A stretch of DNA of 6,037 bases, taken from a virus. The DNA lies in IMG/VR virus record IMGVR_UViG_3300020030_000036, positions 1 through 6,037 of that record. One strand, given 5' to 3'. The notes beneath the pieces are model-generated. The model ran no database searches and had not been told where the DNA came from. It saw nothing but the letters and a program-made list of their open reading frames with translations. A program made the position numbers and the translations under genes. Shown here one piece after another: positions 1-6,037 of this stretch (position 1 is the stretch's first letter; every line of letters begins with the position of its first letter).

Positions 1-121
1 ACTTCGTCGTGGTCTTACTTTGATTTTGAGAAGCGTATCAGTTATAACTACTCGATTCCTCGATACTACCTTAGATATCTTAAACCGGAAGATGACGTTG
101 TTCGCTCGATTACCGCTGCTG
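1..121. repeat. Terminal redundancy: exact copy of 5917..6037, the circularisation overlap of a 5,916-nt circular genome
   Basis: Base-by-base comparison shows 1-121 (acttcgtcgtggtcttac...attaccgctgctg) identical to 5917-6037. The Rep reading frame runs through it without interruption. Confidence 0.95.
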
Positions 122-360
122 ATGCTTATGCACATTTTAGCAAGTCTCCTTTGGTTAAGCGTATTGTGTCTCTGTGTGTTGAGCGGTTCGGCCTCAATTC
201 CTCCGTATCCCGTAGAGAGACGTATACGTGGGAGCAAAAGCAAATGATGCGTTTTTCCGCTTCCTCTCGTAAGATGCCCGATTTTGACCCCCCTACTTGG
301 CTAGATTTGGATATCCTTCAGTTTTGGAGAGACCATTATAAACTTCAACTAATTACTTAA
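1..360 (+). CDS. Replication initiation protein (Microviridae VP4 / protein A-like), C-terminal portion. It continues from 5206..5916 across the circular junction, with stop TAA at 358-360.
   Basis: Frame 1 is open from base 1 (TSSWSYFDFEKRISYNYSIPRYYLRYLKPEDD...QFWRDHYKLQLIT*). The first 121 nt duplicate the window end, where the same frame carries the Rep N-terminal and catalytic motifs. The listed ORF 151..360 is only the tail of this frame. Confidence 0.9.
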   Translation, partial: TSSWSYFDFEKRISYNYSIPRYYLRYLKPEDDVVRSITAADAYAHFSKSPLVKRIVSLCVERFGLNSSVSRRETYTWEQKQMMRFSASSRKMPDFDPPTWLDLDILQFWRDHYKLQLIT

Positions 361-2175: not shown

Positions 2176-2472
2176 ATGGCACTTGATTGGCTTCTTGAAG
2201 ATGCTCCCGCCTATGTCTCTCGCGGTCAGCGTATTCTTTCCGTTCTTGATGGCTCTGGCTCCGTTGATGTTTTGCCTGGTCGACCCGATGTGGTGGTAGA
2301 ACCTTCTGATTTTGATAAGGGTGAAAAGTTTAACCCTGAGATTGATTTTGACCCTAATTCGTTCTCTCGTATGGATAAGTTTGATGGTCTCGAAGTTGGC
2401 CAGGAACTTATTGATTCAGAATTAGATAGGTCGAAATCTGCTTCGAAACCTACTACCTCTGAAGAAAAATAG
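2176..2472 (+). CDS. Small acidic hypothetical protein (98 aa); possible scaffolding-type protein
   Basis: Clean ATG ORF 12 nt after the VP1 stop, on the same strand and not overlapping neighbours. It is strongly D/E-rich (EPSDFDKGEKFNPEIDFDPNSF...ELIDSELD). No motif was recognised, so the function is inferred only from position and charge. Confidence 0.6.
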   Translation: MALDWLLEDAPAYVSRGQRILSVLDGSGSVDVLPGRPDVVVEPSDFDKGEKFNPEIDFDPNSFSRMDKFDGLEVGQELIDSELDRSKSASKPTTSEEK

Positions 2473-2494
2473 TATGTCCTTTACTTGACGATAT

Positions 2495-2797
2495 ATGTTA
2501 CGTGCGCGGACCCCTTCGGAAAGAGTCCGTGAATTTCTGAAGGTTATTGGTAACGACTGCCGGAGAGGCCGCGCATTTTTCTATCGTTCTTTAAATTTCA
2601 TTCCTATGCCTGATACTAAACAACCCTTCTATAAATCGAAGTCTTTTTGGACGCTTGTTTCGTCTATTATTGCCGCGTTGGCTGCTTTTTTTCTTGCTTC
2701 GTGTTCTGCTCAAGCTAGAATGCAGCGCAGCGGTGTTCATATCGATACCGTGCGTGTCGATTATATCATTCGTTCTAACAATTTAACTCGCATATAA
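2495..2797 (+). CDS. Small membrane protein / putative lipoprotein. The start is ambiguous: ATG 2495 gives 100 aa, internal ATG 2606 gives a 63-aa lipoprotein precursor.
   Basis: From Met38 (ATG 2606) the sequence is MPDTKQPFYKSKSFWTLVSSIIAALAAFFLASC|SAQ.... This has a Lys-containing n-region, an approximately 18-residue hydrophobic core, then the lipobox L-A-S-C (Cys codon 2702-2704), leaving a 31-aa mature peptide. The stop (2795-2797) is 1 nt before the VP2 ATG. The upstream 37 codons are Arg-rich and contain a small hairpin (2505-2531), so they may or may not be translated. Confidence 0.6.
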   Translation: MLRARTPSERVREFLKVIGNDCRRGRAFFYRSLNFIPMPDTKQPFYKSKSFWTLVSSIIAALAAFFLASCSAQARMQRSGVHIDTVRVDYIIRSNNLTRI

Positions 2798-2798
2798 T

Positions 2799-4061
2799 AT
2801 GGCCATACCTGTTGCTGCTGCCGGTGCTGCTACCTCTTTTGGTCGCGCCCTTGGTGAGTCTGCCGCTTCTACCGGCACTAATGGTTTAATAAACGGCTTT
2901 TTAGGCCAACTTTTTGGTGGCATGAACGCCCGTCGCCAATGGCGATATCAACAAAAGCAGATGAAACTTCAGCAGCAGTACGCTCTTGAGCAAATGCAGA
3001 AGCAATCAGAACTTTCTTACGCTAACTGGCAAAAACAATTTGATTACGAAAACGCATATAATGACCCATCGAAGGTTTTCGACCGCTATTTGAAGGCTGG
3101 TGTAACGCCTGCCGCTGTTTTAGGCTCTTCCGGTGTTGGAGTAAACGCTACTATGTCTGGCGGCTCCGCCTCTATGCCCTCCGCCTCAGGTCCTTCTGGT
3201 GGCGCTCCCGTTAGCCCTAGTGTCTTCGCCCCTGGTGATCCTACTGCTATCGCGCAGAACATGTTGGCTCGTTCTTCGGTCGATCGCAATGACGCTGCCG
3301 CTAATCGTGATAATGCTGAAGCCGAGCTTATGAGAGGCAACACTCATAGTGCAGACTGGCGAAAGGAGATGGATGAGTTGGAGAAGAAGTCTTTAGAACA
3401 TCAGATTAACAACGTTTCCGAATTAATTCGTCTTAATCGTGCTTTAGCCGATATCCATGCTGCTGATGCTGAGTACGCTGATCTTATGTCTACATACAAG
3501 TTTCAAGATTTTGTTGCTATGTACGCGAAACATGTTGAGGAAGCAAATCAGCTTAAGAAGTACAACGATAAATACTTCGATGCTGTTTATGCTGCTCAAA
3601 TCGCTCGGGATTTTGCTGCTGCTTACGAGTCCGCCGCCTCTGGCGATGTCTTGAATGTTGAATCAGAAATACGTAAGGTTAACTTGGCCGACCTTCGCGA
3701 GTGGTTTAATCTCAATTGGGACGCCGTTATTGATGTTCCAGAAGTTAATGAAAAAGGCAAGCCTACCGGCAAGACGGTGAAGATGACAGGCCGTGAGATT
3801 CATGAGAAACTTATGGGACTCGCTGCTTCGGAAGGTGAACAAAATCTCTCAGGTCGCTGGTTTCAAAATCGATCCAGCAAGAATGCTTTTGGTTATAGCA
3901 TGGCGAGAACCGCCCTGGTTGGTGCCATGGCTATCGCCGGCACGGCCGCGACGAAGCGTCCTGTTCCTGTCGGTTATGATGAAAATGTGGAAAGATACGA
4001 TAAATATGGTGAATTTGTTGGAGGTACGAGGGTTACCCGTCGCGATTTGACGAAGAAATGA
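2799..4061 (+). CDS. Minor capsid / DNA pilot protein (Microviridae VP2 / H-like), 420 aa
   Basis: It has a Gly/Ala-rich hydrophobic N-terminus, then a Gln-rich helical segment. The conserved VP2-type motif follows: NWQKQFDYENAYNDPSKVFDRYLKAGVTPAAVLG (compare the N-x-Y-N-S-P...AGLNP pattern of microvirus VP2). Next come a Ser/Gly/Pro low-complexity linker and a long helical C-terminal half. Size and position after VP1 are typical. Confidence 0.85.
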   Translation: MAIPVAAAGAATSFGRALGESAASTGTNGLINGFLGQLFGGMNARRQWRYQQKQMKLQQQYALEQMQKQSELSYANWQKQFDYENAYNDPSKVFDRYLKAGVTPAAVLGSSGVGVNATMSGGSASMPSASGPSGGAPVSPSVFAPGDPTAIAQNMLARSSVDRNDAAANRDNAEAELMRGNTHSADWRKEMDELEKKSLEHQINNVSELIRLNRALADIHAADAEYADLMSTYKFQDFVAMYAKHVEEANQLKKYNDKYFDAVYAAQIARDFAAAYESAASGDVLNVESEIRKVNLADLREWFNLNWDAVIDVPEVNEKGKPTGKTVKMTGREIHEKLMGLAASEGEQNLSGRWFQNRSSKNAFGYSMARTALVGAMAIAGTAATKRPVPVGYDENVERYDKYGEFVGGTRVTRRDLTKK

Positions 4062-4141: not shown

Positions 4142-4453
4142 ATGAAAGCAAATGAAAAATCTAGATTCGTAGACCTCTCTGTTGATGTTATCGAGTACAT
4201 GTTCACTGAGTGGCTTGTTCGTCAAGGTATCTTTTCTAAATTTAAAGCGAACTATGAGGGTTTTAGTACAAATCATCGATCCTTTCGCGCCAATTTACGT
4301 GATCGGCTTCGCTTTTTGTGTCACACCTCCGGCCCTGGCAGCCTTATTTCTACGGCTTTTCCGTTCGCTCTGACGCGAGAAGGTTATGAATTTTGGGTAG
4401 ACAAATCGAATCGTTGGTGTCAATTTTGTATAGATTTTAAATCGACTTTTTAA
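4142..4453 (+). CDS. Hypothetical protein, 103 aa (accessory ORF 1)
   Basis: ATG ORF following the candidate promoter, with no overlap with neighbours. The C-terminal half is aromatic-rich (AFPFALTREGYEFWVDKSNRWCQFC) and has C60-H61 plus a C93-x-x-C96 pair. No family was confidently recognised. Confidence 0.6.
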   Translation: MKANEKSRFVDLSVDVIEYMFTEWLVRQGIFSKFKANYEGFSTNHRSFRANLRDRLRFLCHTSGPGSLISTAFPFALTREGYEFWVDKSNRWCQFCIDFKSTF

Positions 4454-4464
4454 ATTATATTATT

Positions 4465-4788
4465 ATGTCTCAAGTTCACATTGTTATTCGCCGGATTAAT
4501 CCGGCCTTGAAAATTGATCTCGCCCAGGTAGGTCGCCTCGAAGAAGACCGATTTGAATCGATTCCCTTGGAGGTTCTTGCAAATTCCGCTATTTCGAGTA
4601 TCTTGAAACGTTCTGAAATTAGCGATTCGCTTTATGTTGATCATTCAAGTATACCTAAACTTATTGCTATCTGTGAAGGTTTCCCTGATTTTCGTGTCGA
4701 ATTTTTTGACAATACACTTGTCCTTATGTTTTACCGTGATCTAGATCGTAATGAAAGCGCGACGAAAGAAGAAGGGGAAGGGCACTAA
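4465..4788 (+). CDS. Hypothetical protein, 107 aa (accessory ORF 2)
   Basis: ATG ORF 11 nt after the previous stop, on the same strand and followed by a strong hairpin. It has an acidic C-terminal tail (ESATKEEGEGH). No motif was recognised. Confidence 0.55.
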   Translation: MSQVHIVIRRINPALKIDLAQVGRLEEDRFESIPLEVLANSAISSILKRSEISDSLYVDHSSIPKLIAICEGFPDFRVEFFDNTLVLMFYRDLDRNESATKEEGEGH

Positions 4789-4833
4789 AGTAGTGACCCG
4801 CCCGCTTGGTGGAAGAGTCCTCTGATGCGGTAG

Positions 4834-5005: not shown

Positions 5006-5206
5006 ATGGATTTTTTCGATTTCAGACCTCGTTTTTCCCCCGTGATTGACGGCATTCCCTACTGTTTTTCTGTTGCGGCATACCGTGGTAAGAAGCGCGT
5101 TGTTATCGCCTGGTTCTCCGACGAAGAGCCGGCGAAGGATTACCTTGTTCGCTGTCGTCGTGATTATCCTGCTGTCAAGTTTGACTGTCTTAGAAGTATT
5201 TTGTAA
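5006..5206 (+). CDS. Hypothetical small protein, 66 aa, translationally coupled to Rep (accessory ORF 3; possible VP5 / protein C-like)
   Basis: The ORF track begins at GTG 4979, but the first ATG is at 5006 (MDFFDFRPRF...). The stop TAA (5204-5206) overlaps the Rep ATG (5206-5208) as TAATG. No motif was recognised. Confidence 0.5.
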   Translation: MDFFDFRPRFSPVIDGIPYCFSVAAYRGKKRVVIAWFSDEEPAKDYLVRCRRDYPAVKFDCLRSIL

Positions 5207-6037
5207 TGCCTTGTTCGTCACCTATATGGATACGCAATCGTCGCTATTTTGACAAGAAGAATCCCTGTCGTAATGGCTCCGATGTCGCCAAGTCCGCCCT
5301 GGCTCTCCGTCCCTGGGATATCGCGCGTCAATGGCTTATGGTCCCATGTGGAAAGTGCGAAGACTGCCTGCGTCGTCAACGTAATGATTGGTTTGTCCGG
5401 CTCGAGCGTGAGCTTGCCCGTTGTAAGGCTGATGGTCAGCAAGCCATTTTTATTACAATAACGATCGCTCCAAAGCACTACGACAAAGCCCTGCTTGACC
5501 CGTCCTGGTTTATTCGAAAATTCAACGAGCGACTACGGCATAAACTCGGCCATTCGTTTAAACACGCTTTTTTTCAGGAGTTTGGCACCCACCCAGAAAC
5601 GGGAAATGAACCCCGATTGCATTTTCATGGCTTTTTATTTGGCACAAACGTTCTCTATAACACGATTCGTTCTGCTGTTCGAGACCTCGGTTTCGTATGG
5701 CTTGCAAAAGCGACACACAAACGTGCTCGCTACTGCGTTAAGTATGTTACTAAACAAATTCAGTTTAATCCCGAAGAAATTTCGGGTAAATTCGTTACCG
5801 TAAATGGAACAATTACACCTTTATCTTGCCTCCTCCAACATCGCCGTTATACGCGAAAATTCGTATCTGCTGGCGTTGGTGATTTTCTTGGCTACATGCC
5901 TCGTCCTTCTGTTCGTACTTCGTCGTGGTCTTACTTTGATTTTGAGAAGCGTATCAGTTATAACTACTCGATTCCTCGATACTACCTTAGATATCTTAAA
6001 CCGGAAGATGACGTTGTTCGCTCGATTACCGCTGCTG
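5206..6037 (+). CDS. Replication initiation protein (Microviridae VP4 / protein A-like, HUH rolling-circle endonuclease), N-terminal portion. It runs off the window end and continues at 1..360.
   Basis: My own translation of frame 1 from ATG 5206 gives MPCSSPIWIRNRRYFDKKNPC...MVPCGKCEDCLRRQRNDWFVRL. This contains the typical microvirus Rep N-terminus and CxxCxxC box. It also contains motif 1 FITITI (5449-5466), HUH motif LHFHGFLF (HFHGFLF at 5620-5640) and the catalytic Tyr motif YCVKYVTK (5731-5754). The ORF track does not list it because it has no stop inside the window end. Stops at 5182 and 5191 in this frame exclude an earlier start. Confidence 0.93.
   Translation, partial: MPCSSPIWIRNRRYFDKKNPCRNGSDVAKSALALRPWDIARQWLMVPCGKCEDCLRRQRNDWFVRLERELARCKADGQQAIFITITIAPKHYDKALLDPSWFIRKFNERLRHKLGHSFKHAFFQEFGTHPETGNEPRLHFHGFLFGTNVLYNTIRSAVRDLGFVWLAKATHKRARYCVKYVTKQIQFNPEEISGKFVTVNGTITPLSCLLQHRRYTRKFVSAGVGDFLGYMPRPSVRTSSWSYFDFEKRISYNYSIPRYYLRYLKPEDDVVRSITAA
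5917..6037. repeat. Terminal redundancy: exact copy of 1..121
   Basis: Identical 121-nt string at both window ends. Confidence 0.95.

What the first reader, a model, noticed from the sequence alone, without database searches (positions are those of the whole stretch)
2495..2797. Tiny lipoprotein (31-aa mature peptide) wedged between VP1 and VP2: candidate lysis or superinfection-exclusion factor
From ATG 2606 the ORF encodes a textbook lipoprotein signal: a K-rich n-region, a hydrophobic core and the lipobox LAS|C. The mature peptide is only 31 aa (CSAQARMQRSGVHIDTVRVDYIIRSNNLTRI). Microviruses outside the phiX174 group have no established lysis gene. Very small lipoproteins act elsewhere as bacteriocin-release (lysis) proteins of colicin plasmids, which have mature peptides of about 28 aa. 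They also act as o-spanins (Rz1) and as receptor-blocking exclusion proteins (T5 Llp, Cor). A lipoprotein inside the structural module of a 5.9-kb phage is unusual. The mature end lacks the acidic residues after Cys that mark surface export in Bacteroidota, suggesting a periplasm-facing location. The 37 Arg-rich codons upstream (2495-2605) raise an alternative: a 100-aa type II membrane protein with a basic cytoplasmic tail.
Basis: partly seen in the sequence, partly recalled or inferred. Interest (0 to 1): 0.7.

Follow-up and report, generated by a model that had tools for sequence, protein, structure and literature searches.

The report
Core small lipoprotein of gut microviruses
A 5.9-kb gut microvirus carries a strongly conserved 63-codon gene for a tiny lipid-anchored envelope peptide, present in every evaluable relative, which is the best candidate so far for how these phages break open their Bacteroidota hosts, though its function is untested.

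Summary
The ORF is real, but the gene is the short form. Translation starts at ATG 2606 and gives a 63-aa precursor with a 31-aa mature peptide. The 63 codons are under strong purifying selection (dN/dS 0.065; off-frame controls 2.6-2.8). The lipobox cysteine is kept in essentially all of 249 distinct relatives, including some with an unrelated signal peptide.

The 37 "Arg-rich codons" upstream (2495-2605) are not coding. They show no codon periodicity, and the frame is broken in 47 of 82 relatives. They overlap a conserved structured element (2480-2589) that shows base-pair covariation and a phiX174-origin-like motif.

The gene is intact in 70 of 70 evaluable genomes selected by VP1. It is as conserved as the replication protein and much more conserved than VP1 or VP2. 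It moves between two genomic slots. Related copies lie in microvirus prophages of Alistipes.

No known protein family matches. The clade has no M15 peptidase, and seven M15-carrying microviruses lack this lipoprotein.

My best reading is a periplasm-facing lipopeptide that acts on a conserved envelope target to cause lysis (about 0.4). Superinfection exclusion is the main rival. Function remains inference.

The parts
2606..2797 (+). Lipoprotein gene: 63 codons plus TAA stop. This is the real coding unit of the finding.
   Evidence: dN/dS is 0.065 over 83 loci, with off-frame controls of 2.8 and 2.6. The gene is intact in 70 of 70 evaluable VP1-selected genomes. M1 is conserved in distant relatives that have stop codons immediately upstream.
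2606..2701 (+). Signal peptide, residues 1-32: n-region with K5/K10/K12 and hydrophobic core F14-L30.
   Evidence: F14, W15, T16, L17, A23, A24 and F29 are invariant in divergent members. dN/dS is 0.046, lower than for the mature part. AlphaFold2 predicts a helix at residues 12-34 with pLDDT 85-89.
2693..2704 (+). Lipobox L30-A31-S32-C33. Cys33 is the predicted lipidation and cleavage site.
   Evidence: The PS51257 pattern with Cys at positions 15-35 is found in 229 of 249 distinct family members. Residue -1 is always S, G or A among the pattern-matching members. The most common boxes are LASC (105) and LSSC (73).
2702..2794 (+). Mature lipopeptide, 31 aa: CSAQARMQRSGVHIDTVRVDYIIRSNNLTRI.
   Evidence: The modal mature length is 31 aa (188 members). 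No D or E occurs at +2 to +5 in any of 234 sequences. AlphaFold2 gives no confident fold for the monomer, with pLDDT 52-64.
2732..2776 (+). Conserved core G43-S57 (GVHIDTVRVDYIIRS), with the alternating pattern of a beta strand.
   Evidence: dN/dS is 0.032 for codons 42-57. G43, H45, D47, T48 and V49 are invariant in 10 divergent members. The core is retained behind an unrelated signal peptide in L092, L093, P0227, P0240 and P0242.
2480..2589 (+). Conserved structured non-coding element that produces the apparent 37-codon N-terminal extension. It has an invariant 5' box TTTACTTGACGATATATG (2480-2497), an outer stem (2502-2509 paired with 2569-2576), an inner hairpin (2513-2543) and a 3' box TTTTTCTATCGTTC (2576-2589).
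   Evidence: 12 of 27 predicted pairs show compensatory double changes, and the inner hairpin pairs have 8-13 such sequences each. It is a candidate terminator and/or replication origin (inference). Rfam has no match.
2495..2605 (+). The 37 'Arg-rich codons': an open frame in the window, but not a conserved coding region.
   Evidence: A stop codon lies in this stretch in 39 of 82 relatives, and 8 of 82 have no ATG at -37. One-nucleotide indels occur within it. There is no codon periodicity.
2795..2801 (+). Junction TAA-T-ATG between the lipoprotein stop and the VP2 start.
   Evidence: The gap is 1 nt in 79 of 81 loci that have the gene in this slot. Co-transcription or translational coupling with VP2 is an inference.

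Best explanation
The gene at 2606-2797 encodes a 63-aa prolipoprotein.

Shown or strongly supported by sequence evidence:
- It is a real gene under strong purifying selection.
- It has a Sec-type signal peptide ending in a lipobox with an invariant Cys.
- It is a core gene of a large clade of gut microviruses linked to Bacteroidota (Alistipes).

Inferred mechanism:
- The precursor is exported.
- Lgt lipidates Cys33 and signal peptidase II cleaves before it.
- This leaves a 31-residue cationic lipopeptide anchored in the periplasm. It is not flipped to the surface, because the acidic export signal is missing.
- Its invariant strand-like core (GVHIDTVRVDY) engages a conserved host envelope component.
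- This damages cell-wall or outer-membrane integrity and releases progeny. In that reading it is the phage's single-gene lysis effector, and it works like a colicin-release or entericidin-type bacteriolytic lipoprotein.
- The unusually conserved signal peptide may itself contribute, as the stable signal peptide of colicin lysis proteins does.
- The gene lies behind a terminator-like structure and abuts VP2, so it is probably expressed late and at low level.

The 100-aa reading is an artefact of a conserved non-coding element that happens to be open in this frame.
For: Real gene, short start:
- dN/dS is 0.065 against 2.6-2.8 in the off-frames. The upstream 37 codons show no periodicity.
- The upstream frame is broken in 47 of 82 relatives.
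- Distant relatives start at the equivalent Met with stops just upstream.

Lipoprotein:
- The PS51257 pattern is present in 229 of 249 members.
- The Cys and the mature core are kept when the signal peptide is swapped (L092, L093, P0227, P0240, P0242).
- The signal peptide and Cys are kept when the mature peptide is swapped (L156-L158, P0243-P0261).
- Two nr entries are already named 'MAG TPA: lipoprotein [Microviridae sp.]'.

Periplasm-facing: 0 of 234 sequences have D or E at +2 to +5.

Core function:
- The gene is intact in 70 of 70 evaluable genomes chosen by VP1 alone.

Conserved host target rather than variable receptor:
- Median identity is 86% for the lipoprotein, against 70% for VP1 and 53% for VP2 in the same genomes.
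- Identity to the Alistipes prophage copy is 75%, while VP1 is 22% and VP4 is 26%.

Independent cassette: the gene sits between VP1 and VP2 in some lineages and upstream of VP4 in others.

No other lysis enzyme:
- Pfam and PHROGs find none in the window.
- The M15 peptidase of Bacteroides microvirus phiHBP1 (PMC13064476) is absent from 219 clade loci.
- Seven M15-carrying microviruses lack this lipoprotein.
- Roux et al. 2012 (PMC3394797) state that phiX174 is the only microvirus with an elucidated lysis mechanism.
Against: - No experiment and no homology to any lysis protein. The functional step is inference only.
- The complementary distribution with M15 is confounded by phylogeny, and the reverse direction rests on only 7 genomes.
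- The mature peptide falls into discrete sequence types behind a constant signal peptide. That pattern could also reflect specificity or exclusion functions.
- The gene is present in prophages, where an exclusion role would also make sense.
- The hydrophobic helix is long, about 17-19 residues with the Cys at position 33. An uncleaved membrane anchor therefore cannot be excluded without a signal peptidase II test.
- An embedded hydrophobic ORF (20-247, inside VP4) stays open in 70 of 75 relatives and could be an E-like lysis gene.
- In a sister clade the lipoprotein frame runs on for about 135 codons to a basic tail, which the simple model does not explain.
Confidence: 0.4

Rival explanations
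1. Superinfection-exclusion or receptor-masking lipoprotein, working like T5 Llp or the Cor proteins. The lipopeptide binds the phage's outer-membrane receptor from the periplasmic side. This blocks a second infection and prevents progeny from being lost on debris or vesicles. In lysogens it would protect the host.
For: Small phage lipoproteins are classic exclusion factors (established knowledge). The gene is present in all four Alistipes prophages found. The mature peptide comes in discrete types behind a constant signal peptide, as expected for specificity determinants.
Against: Accessory exclusion genes are usually sporadic, but this one is intact in 70 of 70 evaluable genomes. It does not co-vary with the receptor-facing proteins: 86% identity where VP1 is 70% and VP2 is 53%, and 75% where VP1 is 22%. 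There is no sequence match to Llp or Cor families or to any PHROG.
Confidence: 0.2
2. Outer-membrane step of lysis only (spanin-like or disruptin-like). The lipopeptide sits in the inner leaflet of the outer membrane and destabilises it at the end of infection. Cell-wall failure would be caused by another product, possibly an embedded ORF such as 20-247.
For: Its size and lipid anchor resemble the o-spanin Rz1 (established knowledge). In the sister clade the same N-terminal module is joined by a long linker to a 12-20-residue hydrophobic stretch plus a basic tail, which resembles the unimolecular spanin layout. The embedded hydrophobic ORF in VP4 stays open in 70 of 75 genomes.
Against: The mature peptide has no proline and no cysteine other than the lipidated one, unlike Rz1 (sequence). 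The 63-aa form has no C-terminal membrane segment. No i-spanin-like partner was identified; the downstream gene is the DNA pilot protein. The embedded ORF has no conserved ATG, and 5.8% of synonymous resamples stay open by chance.
Confidence: 0.12
3. A 100-aa type II membrane protein that starts at ATG 2495 and has a basic cytoplasmic tail.
For: The frame is open in the window. 117 of the best 120 database hits were called as 100-aa proteins.
Against: Those hits are biased by gene callers that take the longest ORF and by the 100-aa query. In loci retrieved with the 63-aa query, 39 of 82 have a stop in the extension and 8 of 82 lack the ATG. One-nucleotide indels occur within the extension. pS is 0.16 and dN/dS is about equal in all three frames. 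The stretch is a covarying structure. Distant relatives lack it entirely.
Confidence: 0.02
4. An envelope lipoprotein with another essential role in the infection cycle. Examples are organising membrane-associated replication or assembly, helping DNA delivery together with VP2, or modulating host envelope physiology. It would not itself be lytic.
For: It has core-gene status and is tightly juxtaposed with VP2, with a 1-nt gap in 79 of 81 loci. In the sister clade it shares a reading frame with a J-like basic tail.
Against: The VP2 linkage is not universal. In Dulem 219, bajarodmic 765 and 634, and the Alistipes prophages the gene sits upstream of VP4. No precedent for such a role is known to me in Microviridae.
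Confidence: 0.2

Closest known systems
Colicin lysis / bacteriocin-release proteins (BRPs; Pfam Lysis_col PF02402)
   Same: A very small prolipoprotein with a mature peptide of about 28-31 residues and an SPase II lipobox. It is encoded on a small replicon and proposed to cause envelope permeabilisation. Its signal peptide appears to be functionally important. The BRP properties are from established knowledge; the size and lipobox here are.
   Different: There is no sequence similarity (no Pfam hit even at E<=10). The host phylum is different (Bacteroidota). The gene is encoded by a phage, not a plasmid. Dependence on OMPLA is unknown.
Entericidin B (EcnB; Pfam PF08085), a chromosomal bacteriolytic lipoprotein of enterobacteria
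   Same: A tiny cationic lipopeptide whose overproduction lyses cells (established knowledge). It has the same precursor architecture.
   Different: There is no sequence similarity. Entericidins are predicted amphipathic helices, whereas this mature peptide has a strand-like alternating pattern and no confident fold.
phiX174 protein E and other single-gene lysis proteins (Sgl)
   Same: It would be a single small membrane-targeted protein of a tiny ssDNA phage that lacks any muralytic enzyme. In the sister clade the ORF is overprinted on another gene, as E is on D.
   Different: E is a non-lipidated, N-terminally anchored inner-membrane protein that inhibits MraY from the membrane or cytoplasmic side. 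Here a lipobox Cys is invariant, so the effector part would be periplasmic. In the window the gene stands alone and is not embedded.
Phage o-spanin Rz1 and unimolecular spanin T1 gp11
   Same: A small phage-encoded outer-membrane lipoprotein that acts in lysis. The extended sister forms have a lipoprotein N-terminus plus a hydrophobic and basic C-terminus.
   Different: The mature peptide has no prolines, no intermolecular Cys, no i-spanin partner and no C-terminal membrane segment in the 63-aa form.
T5 Llp and Cor (phi80/N15) exclusion lipoproteins
   Same: A small phage lipoprotein facing the periplasm that could act on an outer-membrane protein.
   Different: Those proteins are about 60 aa when mature and folded, are accessory, and are specific to FhuA. 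This one is 31 aa, is a core gene, is more conserved than the capsid and pilot proteins, and shows no sequence match.

Membership tests
Bacterial lipoprotein (signal peptidase II substrate; PROSITE PS51257) | Positively charged n-region, hydrophobic core, and lipobox [LVI..][ASTG..][GAS]-C with the Cys within residues 15-35 | tested here: met
   In the window K5, K10 and K12 form the n-region, F14-L30 is the core (mean Kyte-Doolittle score 2.0), and LAS-C places the Cys at 33. The pattern is met in 229 of 249 distinct family members.
Bacterial lipoprotein (signal peptidase II substrate; PROSITE PS51257) | Evolutionary invariance of the lipidated Cys | tested here: met
   The Cys is invariant in divergent members, including those with swapped signal peptides or swapped mature peptides. 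One exception was seen: P0087 has Ser.
Bacterial lipoprotein (signal peptidase II substrate; PROSITE PS51257) | Actual diacylglyceryl modification and globomycin-sensitive cleavage | not testable with these tools
   This needs labelling, mass spectrometry or globomycin. SignalP and LipoP were not available; a PROSITE-rule script was used instead.
Bacteroidota surface-exposed lipoproteins (lipoprotein export signal) | Acidic residues within about +2 to +5 after the Cys | tested here: not met
   The sequence is C-S-A-Q-A-R, and 0 of 234 family sequences have D or E at +2 to +5. The rule itself is taken from established knowledge (Lauber 2016; Valguarnera 2018).
Colicin lysis proteins (Pfam PF02402 Lysis_col) | Sequence membership in the family profile | tested here: not met
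   There is no Pfam hit except LPAM_1 (lipid attachment site) at E=1. NCBIfam shows only weak lipoprotein-leader matches.
Colicin lysis proteins (Pfam PF02402 Lysis_col) | Mature lipopeptide of about 27-35 residues | tested here: met
   31 residues in the window, and 31 is the modal length (188 members).
Colicin lysis proteins (Pfam PF02402 Lysis_col) | Causes quasi-lysis through phospholipase A activation | not testable with these tools
   This requires expression experiments.
Entericidin (Pfam PF08085) | Sequence membership in the family profile | tested here: not met
   No hit at E<=10.
o-spanin (Rz1-like) | Proline-rich periplasmic domain with a Cys for intermolecular disulfide, and an adjacent or embedded i-spanin gene | tested here: not met
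   The mature peptide has 0 Pro and only the lipid Cys. The neighbouring genes are an acidic ORF and the DNA pilot protein VP2 (phrog_8689).
Unimolecular spanin (T1 gp11-like) | N-terminal lipobox plus a C-terminal transmembrane segment in one chain | tested here: not met
   The window protein ends 30 residues after the Cys with no hydrophobic segment. The extended sister forms have only a 12-20-residue hydrophobic stretch before a basic tail, which is inconclusive for them.
Exclusion lipoproteins (T5 Llp, Cor) | Sequence membership, and specificity that tracks the phage's receptor-binding proteins | tested here: not met
   No PHROG or Pfam match. Lipoprotein identity is 86% where VP1 is 70% and VP2 is 53%. 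The lack of co-variation is indirect evidence only.
phiX174 E-type single-gene lysis protein | Small membrane protein sufficient for lysis, with no muralytic enzyme in the genome | tested here: inconclusive
   There is no muralytic domain in the window's ORFs and no M15 in 219 clade loci. Sufficiency for lysis cannot be tested here.

The most novel reading that the evidence does not exclude
This family is the long-missing lysis gene of a large group of non-phiX174 microviruses, and it is a new class of 'protein antibiotic'. In this reading a 31-residue lipid-anchored strand peptide, possibly together with its released and unusually conserved signal peptide, attacks a conserved periplasmic or envelope target of Bacteroidota from the periplasmic side. 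Known single-gene lysis proteins instead hit the cytoplasmic or membrane steps MurA, MraY and MurJ. The family's modular evolution would then offer a natural library of variants. That modularity includes signal and mature modules swapped independently, two genomic slots, and overprinted extended forms.
Probability: 0.3. Interest if true: 0.8.

Novelty: new variant of a known kind. Interest (0 to 1): 0.6.

Why it matters
Microviruses are among the most abundant gut phages. According to Roux et al. 2012 (PMC3394797), phiX174 was the only one whose lysis mechanism had been elucidated. Four full-text searches of the held paper library turned up no later description of a microvirus lysis lipoprotein.

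A 63-codon core gene that is easy to synthesise and express makes the question directly testable for a whole clade linked to Alistipes and other Bacteroidales. If it is lytic, its target would be a conserved and accessible weak point of the Bacteroidota envelope. It would also be the first lipoprotein-type single-gene lysis protein. If it is an exclusion factor, it would be the smallest known and the first reported in Microviridae.

The work also corrects annotation. Many database entries call a 100-aa protein that is really a 63-aa gene preceded by a structured regulatory or origin-like element. A conserved 24-codon J-like gene is unannotated.

Tried and rejected
- Family searches. Pfam, PHROGs, NCBIfam and PADLOC gave no significant family for the short form, an extended form or two divergent members. 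The only matches were to lipid-attachment motifs and a marginal PADLOC match (PDC-M02A, E=0.003-0.03) that I could not interpret.
- Rfam gave no match for the upstream element at E<=1.
- The simple terminator scan did not flag the element, because its loop is too large.
- AlphaFold2 with a 33-sequence alignment predicted only the signal-peptide helix. The mature part had low confidence, so no fold search was run.
- Literature searches found no description of this protein. The term sets were: Microviridae + lipoprotein + lysis; single-gene lysis + microvirus; Alpavirinae + lipoprotein; Alistipes + microvirus; gokushovirus + lysis + signal peptide. A search for the phiX174 origin sequence found no paper, so I verified the sequence directly in phiX174 records.
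- The profile search of 1.84 billion representatives found no cellular homologues. The two weakest hits (P0262, P0263) are spurious or are microviral fragments.
- I considered that two genomes lacked the gene. L202 turned out to be an artefact of my circularisation, and L165 is an incomplete contig that breaks inside the slot.
- I considered the +1-frame ORF 2655-2786 and the minus-strand ORF 2591-2740 as the real genes. I rejected them because frame 0 alone shows purifying selection, and the +1 ORF is open in only 29 of 68 relatives.
- A beta-signal or BAM-mimic reading of the core motif was considered, but it does not match the canonical motif convincingly. It is left as speculation.
Full report
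**1. Observation**

The window is a complete circular microvirus genome with a 121-nt terminal redundancy, so the true length is 5916 nt. Its layout is as follows:
- The replication gene VP4 wraps the ends (about 5206-5916 plus 1-360).
- VP1 is at 364-2163 (Phage_F, phrog_514).
- An acidic 98-aa ORF is at 2176-2472.
- The finding's ORF is at 2495-2797.
- VP2, the DNA pilot protein, is at 2799-4061 (phrog_8689).
- Small ORFs follow.

The short form satisfies the PROSITE PS51257 lipoprotein rule. The 100-aa form puts the Cys at residue 70 and does not.

**2. The gene is real and starts at 2606**

Homologues are abundant:
- 420 clusters with the 100-aa query and 676 with a profile, in a protein database clustered at 90% identity. 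All are on contigs of about 13 kb or less.
- 67 clusters at 50% identity among 1.84 billion representatives.
- 29 plus 21 GenBank microvirus records.
- 157 IMG/VR loci.

Over 83 loci the 63 codons have dN/dS of 0.065, with nearly saturated synonymous sites (pS 0.63). The two off-frames give 2.8 and 2.6.

The 37 codons upstream behave quite differently.
- Even among the 35 loci where they are open, pS is only 0.16. dN/dS is 0.43, compared with 0.49 and 0.76 in the other two frames, so there is no codon periodicity.
- Among 82 loci retrieved with the 63-aa query, 39 have a stop in this stretch and 8 lack the ATG.
- One-nucleotide indels occur inside it.
- Distant relatives have a stop directly upstream of the conserved Met.

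The 117 of 120 top hits that are '100 aa' reflect longest-ORF gene calling and a query that rewarded the extension. The type II membrane-protein alternative is therefore rejected.

**3. What the upstream stretch is**

Positions 2480-2589 form a conserved element. It has an invariant 5' box (TTTACTTGACGATATATG), a GC-rich outer stem, an inner hairpin and an invariant T-rich 3' box (TTTTTCTATCGTTC).

RNAalifold on 36 distinct sequences finds 27 pairs, of which 12 have compensatory double changes. The inner-hairpin pairs have 8-13 such sequences each. Rfam has no match.

Two functions are plausible, both by inference. The first is a leaky terminator after the capsid module, like the terminators after phiX174 genes F, G and H (my knowledge). 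The second is the replication origin. The 5' box contains ACTTGA. In microviruses where the lipoprotein sits elsewhere (Dulem 219, bajarodmic 765), the same intergenic slot holds a hairpin whose loop reads ACTTGATA. This is identical to the core of the 30-nt phiX174 origin CAACTTGATATTAATAAC..., whose presence at phiX174 4299-4328 I verified. That this sequence is the origin, nicked after CAACTTG, is from my knowledge.

**4. Lipoprotein nature**

Of 249 distinct family members, 229 match the PS51257 pattern with the Cys at positions 15-35. Most of the remainder still have [SGA]-C with minor deviations, or are fragments.

The strongest argument is modularity.
- Some relatives keep the lipobox Cys and the GVHIDTVRVDY core behind a completely different signal peptide (L092, L093, P0227, P0240, P0242).
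- Others keep the signal peptide and Cys with a different 28-35-aa mature peptide (L156-L158, P0243-P0261).
- The Cys is the one constant.

No member has an acidic residue at +2 to +5 (0 of 234). By the known Bacteroidota export-signal rule, this predicts a periplasm-facing rather than a surface-exposed protein.

AlphaFold2 predicts only the signal-peptide helix (residues 12-34, pLDDT 85-89). The mature part has low confidence. This is consistent with a peptide that folds only on a partner or a membrane.

One caveat remains. The hydrophobic helix is long and the Cys lies at position 33, so cleavage needs experimental proof.

**5. Distribution, host and evolution**

In an unbiased set chosen by VP1 similarity alone (VP1 68-91% identical), 70 of 71 near-complete genomes carry the intact gene. 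The exception is an incomplete contig that breaks inside the slot. It is therefore a core gene.

In the genomes whose VP1 is below 75% identical to the window's, median identities to the window are:

| Protein | Median identity |
|---|---|
| Lipoprotein | 86% |
| VP4 | 88% |
| ORF98 | 88% |
| VP1 | 70% |
| VP2 | 53% |
| ORF107 | 52% |
| ORF103 | 46% |

Among 185,579 species genomes, the family occurs only in four Alistipes assemblies. There it lies inside microvirus prophages next to VP4, VP1 and VP2 homologues. In those prophages the lipoprotein is 75% identical to the window's, while VP1 is 22% and VP4 is 26%.

The gene occupies two different slots. It lies between the structured element and VP2 in the window's clade, with a 1-nt gap to the VP2 ATG in 79 of 81 loci. 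In Dulem 219, bajarodmic 765 and 634, and the prophages it lies just upstream of VP4.

The window's GC content (45.8%) is within the range of the Alistipes prophages (43-50%), whose host flanks are 55-61%. Alistipes, or at least Bacteroidales, is therefore a reasonable host but is not proven for this clade.

**6. Function**

No known family matches in Pfam, PHROGs, NCBIfam or PADLOC. The argument is circumstantial.

- Every lytic phage needs a lysis function. This 5.9-kb genome encodes no muralytic enzyme.
- The M15 peptidase is the candidate endolysin of the only cultured Bacteroidota microvirus, phiHBP1 (PMC13064476), and of many other microviruses (Roux 2012, PMC3394797). It is absent from all 219 clade loci.
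- Conversely, seven M15-carrying microviruses, including phiHBP1, have no member of this family.
- The gene is core and is more conserved than the receptor-facing proteins. This fits a conserved host target better than a variable receptor.
- Tiny lipoproteins that lyse cells exist (colicin-release proteins, entericidin B; my knowledge).
- The signal peptide is under even tighter constraint (dN/dS 0.046) than the mature part (0.087). This is unusual, and it recalls the functional stable signal peptide of colicin-release proteins.

I therefore rank the readings as follows: lysis effector first (about 0.4), exclusion second (about 0.2), another essential envelope role (about 0.2), and an outer-membrane-only, spanin-like role (about 0.12).

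Points against lysis:
- The M15 complementarity is confounded by phylogeny.
- The mature peptide's discrete types could be specificity determinants.
- The gene's presence in prophages fits exclusion equally well.
- An embedded hydrophobic ORF inside VP4 (20-247) remains open in 70 of 75 genomes, although it lacks a conserved ATG and 5.8% of synonymous resamples stay open by chance.

**7. An unexplained relative**

In about 30 of the 67 50%-identity clusters, the lipoprotein ORF has no stop after the core. It continues for about 135 codons through another gene (118-140 aa, a different frame, with conserved FDP..PVYTC and HLWGKMF motifs). It ends in a conserved basic tail, RSRRGGRRGKPRPKIKTIPLGGSHL, just before VP4.

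Resampling synonymous codons of the overlapped gene leaves the lipoprotein frame open in only 1-38% of trials per lineage. The open frame therefore seems to be selected.

The window encodes the same tail as a separate 24-codon gene at 4751-4825 (MKARRKKKGKGTKVVTRPLGGRVL). It is conserved with its ATG in 68 of 74 genomes. It resembles the phiX174 J DNA-binding peptide (my knowledge). Why a J-like tail shares a frame with a lipoprotein is not explained. Internal initiation, frameshifting or a spanin-like architecture are all possible.

**8. Novelty**

Two nr entries already carry the automatic name 'MAG TPA: lipoprotein [Microviridae sp.]', so the bare annotation exists. I found no paper discussing it. 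Phage small lipoproteins and bacteriolytic lipopeptides are known kinds. A core lipoprotein as the candidate lysis gene of microviruses, unrelated in sequence to any of them, would be a new variant.

Noticed in passing
window 2480-2589: A conserved structured intergenic element with strong base-pair covariation. It is flanked by an invariant 5' box TTTACTTGACGATATATG and an invariant 3' box TTTTTCTATCGTTC. It is a candidate terminator and/or plus-strand replication origin. Related microviruses (L086 395-510, L088 280-380) carry ACTTGATA, the core of the phiX174 origin, in a hairpin loop at the same slot.
   Followed up: partly
window 4751-4825 (+): An unannotated 24-codon gene, MKARRKKKGKGTKVVTRPLGGRVL, overlapping the end of ORF107 (4465-4788). 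It is conserved with its ATG in 68 of 74 related genomes. It resembles the phiX174 J DNA-binding peptide, with a basic stretch and a xGGxxL end.
   Followed up: partly
L090 2486-3118; L091 6977-7585; L095 2432-3025; L100 1440-2027; L117 406-984: In a sister clade the lipoprotein ORF has no stop after the core. It runs about 135 codons through a second gene in another frame and ends in the J-like basic tail just before VP4. Synonymous resampling suggests the open frame is selected. The product and its purpose are unexplained.
   Followed up: partly
L156 3507-3704; L157 2428-2625; L158 3749-3946: Relatives have, at the same slot, a lipoprotein with the same signal peptide but an unusual LESC box and a different 33-aa mature peptide (T.RHYVVQSASSVKSGDTTRTTITYEQVGNFKRP). 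The mature module therefore comes in discrete types.
   Followed up: partly
between the structured element and the lipoprotein ATG in L008, L009, L016, L024, L026, L027, L029, L032, L034, L044, L083 and L157 (absent from the window, would lie near 2596): An insertion of about 90 nt, GC-rich and hairpin-forming (TTGTTTACACCATTGTGGCGAGGTGACGCATTTCGCGGTTCGGAGAACCGCC...), is present in some genomes only. It looks like a small mobile or regulatory structured element.
   Followed up: no
window 20-247 (+), inside the 3' part of VP4 in another frame: A hydrophobic 75-codon embedded ORF with a membrane-helix-like segment and a basic C-terminus. It stays open in 70 of 75 related genomes. It has no conserved ATG, and 5.8% of synonymous resamples stay open by chance. 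It is a weak E-like rival candidate for lysis.
   Followed up: partly
window 1-121 and 5917-6037: The last 121 nt repeat the first 121 nt (an assembly overlap of a circular genome). The genome is 5916 nt, and VP4 runs across the junction.
   Followed up: yes
window 2176-2472 (+): An acidic 98-aa ORF directly after VP1 is as conserved as VP4 (median 88% identity) but matches no family. By its position and composition it is probably the internal scaffolding protein.
   Followed up: no
L091-L094 (Alistipes genomes), prophage parts about 6900-12000: Microvirus prophages are integrated in Alistipes chromosomes. Their GC content is 43-50%, against 55-61% in the host flanks. I found no paper in the held library linking this microvirus group to Alistipes.
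   Followed up: partly
window 2606-2794; P0203: A marginal match of the lipobox plus mature region to the PADLOC candidate defence model PDC-M02A (E=0.026 for the window protein, 0.0028 for P0203). I could not evaluate it further.
   Followed up: no
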